From assembly GCF_000026545.1 (NCBI RefSeq), contig NC_011601.1: a DNA stretch of 64,000 nucleotides. The stretch is one strand, 5' to 3'. Within the stretch, counting starts at the first letter, position 1. Every line of letters starts with the position of its first letter. The position numbers were made by a program. The stretch comes from Escherichia coli O127:H6 str. E2348/69 (GTDB taxonomy: Bacteria; Pseudomonadota; Gammaproteobacteria; Enterobacterales; Enterobacteriaceae). Shown here in pieces: positions 3,001-6,000 of this stretch.

Positions 3001-6000
3001 GCATGAAACAGCAGGAACGCCAGCGGCGCAGTCAGGAAGATCAGTCGTGGAATGCCCGACAAGAAGTGGAACATGGCGTTGACATAGCACAGCCGCTGAG
3101 CAAACTTCAGCCCTTTACCGGTGAGCGGGTTATCGAGACGGAAGATTTGCACCATCCCGCGCGCCCAGCGAATACGCTGACCGATATGCGCCGAGAGACT
3201 TTCGGTCGCCAGCCCCGCTGCCTGCGGAATACGCATATACGCGGAGGTGTAGCCACGACGGTGCAGACGCAGAGAAGTGTGCGCATCTTCGGTTACCGTT
3301 TCGACAGCAATACCGCCAATCTCATCCAGCGGCTTACGGCGAATCACCGCACATGAGCCGCAGAAGAAAGTGGCATCCCACATATCATTGCCGTCCTGCA
3401 CCAGACCATAGAACAGCGTGCCTTCGTTCGGCGTTTTACGAAAACGCCCCAGGTTGCGTTCAAACGGATCCGGCGAGAAGAAGTGGTGCGGCGTCTGCAT
3501 CATCGCCAGCTGTTTCTCTTTCAGGAACCAGCCCATGGTCATTTGCAGTAACGATCGCGTTGGTACGTGGTCGCAGTCGAATATCGACACGAACTCGCCT
3601 TTGGCATATTTCAGCGCATTGTTGATGTTGCCCGCTTTCGCATGTTCATGAGTGGTACGGGCGATATATTTCACCCCCACGTTTTGCGCAAACTGGCGAA
3701 ACTCTTCCCTGCCGCCGTCATCGAGGATCCAGATGTTCAGCTTGTCTTTCGGCCAGTCGATACCCAGCGAAGCGTAAATGGTATTTTTCACCACGTTGAG
3801 ATCTTCGTTGTAAGTCGGGACAAAGATATCCACCGACGGCCACAGCGACATATCTTTCGGCAATGGCACCGGCTGACGATTCAGAGGCCATACGACCTGG
3901 AAATAGCCGAGCACCAGCACAATCCACGCGTACGTTTCGGCGAACAGCAGAATAAGCCCGCACACCAGGCTGACCGGATCGTCCCAGTTTAACGTCGAGG
4001 TGTAACGCCACCAGATATAACGGCAAGAAACGGTCAGCGACAGCACAATCAGCATCAGCGCCGAGAAGCGCCCCGGCATCCGCCGTACGATCAGCGCTAC
4101 CCCCCACAGCAGCATCAGGAAGATAAACTGCGCTAGCGGGTTAAACGGCTGAGTAACGCAGATTAACGCCAGAATCAGCGAGAAGGTGACGATGATACCA
4201 AGGATCAACCGCCGCGCCCCGGCACTCAAATGACCGAGCTCTTTTTTCTCATCAAGATGCTGTGTTTTATGGCTAACGCGCTCAGGCAGCTCGTTCATCC
4301 ATTGATGGTAACGTCCACGAATATTTTGTAGACCTGAAAATGCTCGCCTGCGCGGTTTCGGCGTTTCTTTGCGCGATGCACCGATCAGTAACCAGCATGT
4401 TTGAATAAGATAACGGACCGGGTCCAGCGGACGCGGACGCGAGGCGTTGATATGCGGATACAGGTTTTTATGTTCTGCGCGAATACGCTGCCAGTGCGGG
4501 TGCTCCAGCGGAATAAAAATCCAGGCCAGGATCATCCAGAAACAGCCGAGCGTCGCGCTGAAAGCCGACGCGCCGTGACGACGATAATCGCGATAACGCC
4601 CAATAAGCCGTGCGTTGACCGGCGGGATAAGCAACCACCGGGTCAGGATACTCATGATGCACTCCCGACTGGCGTTTTCAGCCCGGAATAGTTTAACAGG
4701 CACCAGTTAGCCAGCGTCAGTATTTCTTCAGCCGCCAGCGCATCACTGCGAAATTCACCGACTGGTTGCTTAGCTGCCAGACATTCAGCCATCGCTTCAT
4801 CACGATGAATGAGCATCGGCAGCAATCGGCGCTGGCTTTGCAACCAAAGCTGGTAAATATCGTCCTGAACCTGGCTGCCAATACGGAAGTCATTAATCAA
4901 AATATGTGCACCATCCGGCAGCGCTTGCTGATGCAGTCGGATATGGCAGTTGGCATCCACATTGACGATTGCCAGCGAGTGATCGCACAAACTCAGCAGC
5001 TGGTGGGTTATCTGCGAGGCATCACGCGGTAAGTCAATTAAAATCCACTGGTAACGCCCGCTGGCTTTTAGTTGCTGTAAGCCGGTGCAAATATCGCTCA
5101 GCCGGGTTTGCCAGTGCTGTGGATTTTCTTGTTCTTCAATGGATAACTGACCAAAAGGCAGCAAATCGAGCTGCGAGGTATAGCGCAACCCGGCGTCACG
5201 CCAGTCCTGGCCATCCAGCATAGCTCTGGCCCAACCCTGACGGTGGGTAAAATCAACGTTAAATGACAGGCGCAACAAGTTGTCCGGGCAGGCATCGACC
5301 ACCAGGACATTTTCTCCCAACATTTGTAATGACCAGGCTAATGCGGCGGTGATGGTTGTTGTCCCCACGCCTCCCCGAACCCCCTGCAATCCCAGTACGG
5401 CCATTCACCAATCCCCTACTTTTGTTGCGCAAACTCTGCCAGCAACGGCCAGCGTTTTAATGCCGCGGCCAACTGTTCGCGTTGGGAAATATCGGCATAA
5501 TCAATATCAGGCAGTGAAAATGCCTGCTTTAACGCCAAAATATCATTCTGGAAGATATAGCCTATCGCGGGATCAGGCAGAGTATCTGGTTCATTGTTAT
5601 TCATTTTTCTTGATCCCTATGAAATAACCGTACCGTTCATGAGACAATTCTAACTGTGAGCATTTCGTCGGTTTATTGTTTACGGCGAGACGGGAATGTG
5701 CTCACTTTTTGACTTTCCGTTACGCAACAGAAAAAGTTAAAAACGAAAAGACTAAAATCACATGTCTTGTGACCTGCTAAATTGATTCACATGCTAAATC
5801 TGATAAGTTTTAATTTCAATGGTAGGTTTATTTCTTAGCTTTCGCTAGTAAACTGATAATCAGACAAAATGTTGACATGAGGGACATTGTGGACCCTGTA
5901 TTCTCTATCGGTATCTCATCATTATGGGATGAGCTGCGACATATGCCAGCAGGCGGCGTCTGGTGGTTTAACGTCGATCGCCATGAAGATGCTATCAGTC

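What the first reader, a model, noticed from the sequence alone, without database searches (positions are those of the whole stretch)
5387..5389. bcsQ is intact: codon 6 is TTG (Leu), not a stop
From memory, K-12 laboratory strains carry a premature TAG stop at codon 6 of bcsQ that contributes to their cellulose-negative phenotype. Here codon 6 is TTG and the 250-aa ParA/MinD-like ORF is uninterrupted, with the bcsQ stop overlapping the bcsA start. The strain is therefore predicted to be competent for cellulose synthesis.
Basis: partly seen in the sequence, partly recalled or inferred. Interest (0 to 1): 0.45.

Follow-up and report, generated by a model that had tools for sequence, protein, structure and literature searches.

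The report
Ordinary intact bcsQ cellulose gene
The cellulose-secretion gene bcsQ is intact here, as in about nine of ten sequenced E. coli; only K-12 laboratory strains carry the stop codon, and this window matches a pathogenic strain (E2348/69) already shown to make cellulose, so the finding is correct but ordinary.

Summary
bcsQ lies at window 4652..5404 on the minus strand. It is an uninterrupted 250-codon ORF, and codon 6 (5387..5389, CAA on the + strand) reads TTG, Leu. Its TGA stop overlaps the bcsA ATG as ATGA (4655..4652). MG1655 has TAG at the same codon, and RefSeq marks the gene there as a pseudogene.

The intact state is the wild type, not a special feature. A 55-mer centred on the SNP finds the TTG allele in 4884 of 5426 complete E. 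coli genomes. The TAG allele is in 349, and all 60 sampled carriers look like K-12 laboratory derivatives.

The whole 64-kb window is 100% identical to EPEC O127:H6 strain E2348/69. In that genome all nine bcs genes have the same length as in K-12 and no internal stops.

The protein scores as BcsQ at equivalog level. It differs at four residues from crystallised E. coli BcsQ and keeps every residue shown to bind ATP.

Published work already shows that E2348/69 makes cellulose, conditionally. On YESCA agar at 25 °C the colonies are red, dry and rough and bind calcofluor. This is lost in a csgA bcsA mutant, and no cellulose was detected on LB at 37 °C.

Verdict: real, correctly interpreted, already known, low interest.

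The parts
5387..5389 (-). bcsQ codon 6, TTG (Leu). K-12 has TAG here.
   Evidence: K-12 allele
4652..5404 (-). bcsQ, intact 250-aa SIMIBI (MinD/ParA-like) ATPase of the cellulose secretion system
   Evidence: ORF. NCBIfam NF007460 scores 540 bits against a cutoff of 399, and Pfam PF06564 gives E = 4e-114. It differs at four residues from the PDB 6YBU BcsQ chain. R10, T16, T17, C39, D150, N152, R156 and N171 are all present.
4652..4655 (-). ATGA overlap of the bcsQ stop (TGA) and the bcsA start (ATG). Translational coupling is inferred.
   Evidence: annotation
5416..5604 (-). bcsR (yhjR), 62 aa, the partner of BcsQ. Its TAG stop lies 11 bases before the bcsQ ATG.
2037..4655 (-). bcsA, cellulose synthase catalytic subunit, 872 aa. 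It has five amino-acid differences from K-12 and no internal stop.
1..2026 (-). bcsB, cut by the window start. It is a full 779 codons in the matching genome.
5605..5876 (.). Divergent intergenic control region between bcsR and bcsE, 272 bp, with 7 substitutions relative to K-12
5877..7448 (+). bcsE, c-di-GMP-binding regulator, 523 aa, intact
7445..7636 (+). bcsF, 63 aa, intact
7633..9312 (+). bcsG, phosphoethanolamine transferase, 559 aa, intact

Best explanation
This is the ordinary wild-type allele of bcsQ in the EPEC O127:H6 strain E2348/69 or a strain indistinguishable from it over 64 kb. BcsQ is a MinD/ParA-like (SIMIBI) ATPase. Together with the small protein BcsR it forms an ATP-bound R2Q2 complex that docks on BcsE and the BcsA/BcsB synthase, and E. 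coli needs it to secrete phosphoethanolamine-cellulose. The gene is whole and its stop overlaps the bcsA start, so ribosomes translate through bcsQ and can pass directly into bcsA. BcsQ is therefore made and downstream expression is not polarised. The other bcs genes are also intact, so the strain makes cellulose when CsgD- and c-di-GMP-dependent signals switch the system on (low temperature, low-salt medium). Shown here: the sequence state, the allele frequency, the family assignment, the conserved ATP-binding residues and the intact locus. Taken from the literature: the function of BcsQ, the effect of the K-12 stop and the phenotype of E2348/69. Inferred: translational coupling at the ATGA overlap, and polarity as part of the K-12 defect.
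For: Codon 6 is TTG and the 250-aa ORF is uninterrupted. The ATGA overlap with bcsA is present. The window is identical to E2348/69 at 64,000 of 64,000 bases. The TTG allele is in 4884 and the TAG allele in 349 of 5426 genomes, and all 60 sampled TAG carriers have K-12-type names or sizes of 4.52 to 4.70 Mb. BcsQ matches at equivalog level and BcsR is recognised. The protein differs at four residues from crystallised BcsQ. Every ATP-binding and structural residue tested by mutagenesis in PMC7840130 is present. All nine bcs genes have the K-12 length and no internal stop. Repair of TAG to TTG alone restores cellulose in W3110. E2348/69 is red, dry and rough and calcofluor-positive, and this depends on bcsA.
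Against: Nothing in the sequence argues against it. There are limits. Cellulose in E2348/69 was not detected on LB at 37 °C, only on YESCA at 25 °C, so competence is conditional. No bcsQ mutant of E2348/69 itself was found in the searchable literature. The window alone lacks bcsZ, bcsC and the regulators csgD, dgcC and rpoS. The effects of the lineage-specific substitutions are untested individually (BcsQ T107 and F218; BcsA R54H, F369L, L550F, V681I and T760A relative to K-12).
Confidence: 0.95

Rival explanations
1. The ORF is intact but the strain is cellulose-negative in practice. The cause would be another defect: a missense change in a Bcs protein, a lesion in csgD, dgcC or rpoS, or an effect of the IS200C next to bcsG. 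On this view an intact bcsQ predicts nothing.
For: Several E. coli with a full-length bcsQ give no calcofluor signal, for example BL21 and H10407 (PMC5944007). Disrupting mutations in bcs genes are common in many sequence types (PMC10881479). On LB at 37 °C the cellulose signal of E2348/69 was at the level of the bcsA mutant. BcsA carries F369L close to the DCD motif.
Against: Wild-type E2348/69 is red, dry and rough and calcofluor-positive on YESCA at 25 °C. Its csgA mutant keeps the cellulose-only morphotype, and the csgA bcsA double mutant loses it (PMC8881592). All nine bcs genes are full length. The IS200C lies 11 bp beyond the bcsG stop and interrupts no gene.
Confidence: 0.04
2. The window comes from a different strain that shares only this allele with E2348/69, so the published phenotype does not transfer.
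For: The 981-bp bcsRQ region is also 100% identical in strain MS 16-3 and in two other O127:H6 records.
Against: All 64,000 bases match E2348/69 without a single mismatch. The IS200C/bcsG junction is 100% identical only in the three O127:H6 records. MS 16-3 is not among the 25 listed of the 28 genomes that span this junction.
Confidence: 0.03

Closest known systems
BcsQ of E. coli 1094 (PDB 6YAR, 6YAY, 6YB3, 6YB5, 6YBU; cryo-EM entries 9FNN, 9FP0, 9FP2)
   Same: Same length (250 aa) and alignment over residues 1-250 with E = 2e-167. R10, T16, T17, C39, D150, N152, R156 and N171 are the same. The neighbours are the same: bcsR upstream, bcsA overlapping downstream and bcsEFG divergent.
   Different: Four substitutions in the alignment, written as chain residue, position, window residue: S107T, N172D, Y218F and K249A. 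None is at a residue reported as functional.
bcsQ pseudogene of E. coli K-12 (b3534, MG1655 and W3110)
   Same: Same locus, same length of 753 nt and 97.3% nucleotide identity, with 20 differences of which 17 are synonymous.
   Different: K-12 has TAG at codon 6 where the window has TTG. The other differences are S107T and Y218F, K-12 residue first. K-12 is cellulose-negative until this one base is repaired.
MinD/ParA/Soj SIMIBI ATPases
   Same: Same fold class and P-loop region. There are weak matches to MinD, ParA, ArsA and CbiA models and to a MinD structure, 4V02.
   Different: These matches fall far below the family cutoffs. BcsQ has a deviant Walker A (R10 in place of the signature lysine) and C39 in place of the catalytic aspartate (PMC7840130; residues confirmed). 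It works in secretion-system assembly, not in partitioning or division-site placement.

Membership tests
BcsQ (NCBIfam NF007460 / TIGR03371; Pfam PF06564) | Full-length match above the curated score cutoff | tested here: met
   NF007460 scores 540.3 bits against a cutoff of 399, over residues 1-250 of 250. TIGR03371 scores 295.8 against 157.85. PF06564 scores 380.3 against 21.3.
BcsQ (NCBIfam NF007460 / TIGR03371; Pfam PF06564) | Deviant Walker A and ATP-sandwich residues (R10, T16, T17, C39, D150, N152, R156, N171) | tested here: met
   All eight residues are present at the expected positions. The residue list comes from PMC7840130.
BcsQ (NCBIfam NF007460 / TIGR03371; Pfam PF06564) | Gene order bcsR-bcsQ-bcsA, with bcsEFG divergent | tested here: met
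   BcsR is recognised by NF040717 and PF10945.
BcsQ (NCBIfam NF007460 / TIGR03371; Pfam PF06564) | ATP-dependent dimerisation, binding of BcsR and BcsE, polar localisation | not testable with these tools
   These are biochemical properties. They are inferred from the four-residue difference from the crystallised protein.
BcsQ (NCBIfam NF007460 / TIGR03371; Pfam PF06564) | Required for cellulose secretion in this strain | not tested
   No bcsQ mutant of E2348/69 was found. Only csgA and csgA bcsA mutants are reported.
E. coli-type (type II) Bcs cellulose secretion system | Complete set bcsRQABZC plus bcsEFG without disruptions | tested here: met
   In the window, bcsB (partial), bcsA, bcsQ, bcsR, bcsE, bcsF and bcsG are open. 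In the identical E2348/69 genome all nine genes have the K-12 length and no internal stops.
E. coli-type (type II) Bcs cellulose secretion system | Cellulose actually produced | not testable with these tools
   Literature only: bcsA-dependent red, dry and rough morphotype and calcofluor phenotype of E2348/69 on YESCA at 25 °C (PMC8881592).
K-12 'domesticated' bcsQ null allele | TAG at codon 6 (17T>A) | tested here: not met
   The window has TTG and MG1655 has TAG. The window is therefore not a member of this allele class.

The most novel reading that the evidence does not exclude
Lineage-specific features of this locus might tune how much cellulose EPEC makes, or how it is modified. Candidates are the IS200C copy 11 bp after the bcsG stop, the seven substitutions in the bcsR/bcsE control region, BcsA F369L next to the DCD motif, and BcsQ T107 and F218. 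These could contribute to the strict low-temperature dependence reported for E2348/69. Nothing here tests this.
Probability: 0.05. Interest if true: 0.2.

Novelty: already known. Interest (0 to 1): 0.05.

Why it matters
It matters very little beyond annotation. It confirms that the locus is the functional wild-type cellulose operon of a well-studied pathogen, and that comparisons with K-12 should treat K-12 as the mutant. Because bcs-disrupting mutations recur in several virulent E. coli lineages (PMC10881479), recording that this EPEC strain keeps an intact locus is a small, useful fact. It is not a discovery.

Tried and rejected
I tried to read the two primary papers: Serra et al. 2013 (J Bacteriol 195:5540) and Saldaña et al. 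2009 (Environ Microbiol 11:992). Neither is held, so the K-12 repair experiment and the origin of the E2348/69 mutants are cited through later papers.

I considered that the codon-6 TAG might extend beyond laboratory K-12 into clinical lineages of the ST10 complex. PMC10881479 reports a shared BcsQ nonsense mutation in ST167, ST617 and ST744. The supplements held do not give its position. I therefore treat the TAG as K-12-restricted, but this was not shown exhaustively.

About 53 genomes have the bcsRQ region but match neither 55-mer, and 140 lack the region altogether. These were not examined.

I considered an alternative reading frame or start for the ORF and rejected it. The annotated ATG gives a full 1-250 match to the BcsQ equivalog model.

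I ran no further search on conservation of Leu6 outside E. coli, because the answer would not change the verdict.

Full report
**1. The observation**

The ORF at window 4652..5404 on the minus strand has 250 codons, starts with ATG and has no internal stop. Read on the gene strand it begins ATG GCC GTA CTG GGA TTG CAG.

The bcsQ stop TGA (4654..4652) and the bcsA start ATG (4655..4653) share the four bases ATGA. The RefSeq annotation of the identical genome puts both genes at the same boundaries.

**2. The K-12 comparison**

In MG1655 (NC_000913.3) the gene b3534 is annotated as a pseudogene. It reads ATG GCC GTA CTG GGA TAG.

The two alleles are both 753 nt long and differ at 20 positions. 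Seventeen differences are synonymous. The three others, written K-12 to window, are *6L, S107T and Y218F.

**3. How unusual an intact codon 6 is**

I queried 5426 complete E. coli genomes with 55-mers that carry the SNP at position 28. Every possible 28-base megablast seed then has to span the SNP, so each query finds only its own allele.

- The TTG query matched 4884 genomes.
- The TAG query matched 349, all at 100% identity.

The full 981-bp bcsR-bcsQ region is present in 5286 genomes. The intact codon is therefore the ancestral, majority state, and the stop is the peculiarity of the K-12 lineage. This agrees with PMC5944007, which places the bcsQ nonsense event on the K-12 ancestor.

**4. 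What the window is**

All 64,000 bases are identical, without a mismatch, to the reverse complement of E. coli E2348/69 (EPEC O127:H6, NZ_CP059840.2, positions 181054..245053).

**5. What the gene is**

- The protein matches the BcsQ equivalog models end to end. NF007460 scores 540 bits against a cutoff of 399, and TIGR03371 scores 296 against 158. Pfam PF06564 gives E = 4e-114.
- It differs at four residues from the crystallised E. coli BcsQ (6YBU, 6YAR and others).
- PMC7840130 shows that BcsQ is a SIMIBI-fold NTPase that crystallises with BcsR as an ATP-bound dimer of heterodimers. It has a deviant Walker A and a cysteine at the catalytic-aspartate position. Mutations of R10, D150, N152, R156 and N171 reduce or abolish cellulose secretion. 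All of these residues, together with T16, T17 and C39, are present in the window protein.
- The partner gene bcsR lies 11 bases upstream (5416..5604) and is recognised by its own models.
- Matches to MinD, ParA and ArsA models are weak and far below their cutoffs. The 'ParA/MinD-like' description is right at superfamily level only.

**6. The rest of the system**

The window holds the 3' part of bcsB (1..2026), bcsA (2037..4655), bcsQ and bcsR on the minus strand. It holds bcsE (5877..7448), bcsF (7445..7636) and bcsG (7633..9312) on the plus strand. bcsZ and bcsC lie beyond the window start.

In the matching genome all nine genes have exactly the K-12 lengths and no internal stops. Each has between 1 and 15 amino-acid substitutions. 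The 272-bp divergent control region differs from K-12 at seven positions.

**7. Mechanism**

Three points come from the literature.

- BcsQ and BcsR are absolutely required for cellulose secretion in E. coli (PMC7840130).
- Changing TAG to TTG at codon 6 is enough to make K-12 W3110 cellulose-proficient (PMC7397504, PMC5014196, PMC5944007).
- It is left open whether the K-12 stop acts through loss of BcsQ, through polarity on downstream genes, or both (PMC5944007).

My inference is that the ATGA overlap suggests translational coupling of bcsA to bcsQ. In the window allele, ribosomes that finish bcsQ are positioned on the bcsA start. In K-12 about 735 nt of untranslated message precede bcsA, which would favour polarity.

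**8. The prediction of cellulose competence**

This has already been answered at the bench for this strain, according to PMC8881592.

- Wild-type E2348/69 on YESCA agar at 25 °C is red, dry and rough, which indicates curli plus cellulose.
- Its csgA mutant is pink, dry and rough, which indicates cellulose only.
- The csgA bcsA mutant is smooth and white.
- Only wild-type E2348/69 on YESCA at 25 °C showed clear calcofluor fluorescence.
- After growth on LB at 37 °C, cellulase-released glucose was at the level of the bcsA mutant.

Competence is therefore real but conditional, as expected for CsgD/DgcC-controlled synthesis. The mutants come from Saldaña et al. 2009 (reference seen; paper not held).

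**9. Context that keeps the finding from being entirely trivial**

Loss-of-function mutations in bcs genes recur in virulent lineages. The ST95 figures in PMC10881479 differ by table: 55.3% of strains in the main text and 68% in the Fig. 6a source data. ST167, ST744 and ST1193 stand at 100% and ST10 at 69%. An intact locus is therefore not guaranteed for a pathogen. Even so, the intact state of this particular, fully sequenced and phenotyped strain is already on record.

**10. Verdict**

It is already known, of low interest, and needs no new mechanism.

Noticed in passing
window 9324..10028 (tnpA 9427..9885, minus strand): An IS200C copy of about 705 bp is inserted 11 bp after the bcsG stop, convergent with bcsG, and is absent at this site in K-12. 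The same bcsG/IS200 junction occurs in 28 of 5426 complete genomes from varied hosts. It is 100% identical only in the three O127:H6 records, which suggests a recurrent insertion site.
   Followed up: partly
window 12448..14328 (genes 12463..14089, minus strand): A 1.9-kb insertion relative to K-12 lies between yhjV and dppF. It carries three overlapping genes annotated as an HTH protein, a HipA N-terminal-domain protein and a HipA-family kinase toxin. From memory this is the tripartite HipBST toxin-antitoxin system described in E. coli O127:H6. I did not test that here.
   Followed up: no
window 10029..10700: The ldr/rdl type I toxin-antitoxin unit is present twice (ldr genes at 10109..10216 and 10592..10699), where K-12 has one ldrD.
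   Followed up: partly
window 23031..28518: A long polar fimbriae operon (lpfA, lpfB, lpfC, an unnamed fimbrial protein gene and lpfE) lies between yhjX and eptB in the matching E2348/69 annotation.
   Followed up: no
window 32125..34276 and 30296..30998: bisC (molybdopterin oxidoreductase) and yhjY (autotransporter-domain protein) are both annotated as frameshifted pseudogenes in the identical RefSeq record.
   Followed up: no
window about 60620..61540: A DUF4862-family gene lies between yiaL and yiaM in the yiaK-yiaO gulonate-utilisation cluster. From memory K-12 has no gene there. I did not check.
   Followed up: no
window 5378..5380 (bcsQ codon 9): Codon 9 is GTT here but GTG in K-12. In K-12 this GTG lies three codons after the TAG stop and could in principle serve as a restart codon. 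This is pure speculation and was not examined.
   Followed up: no
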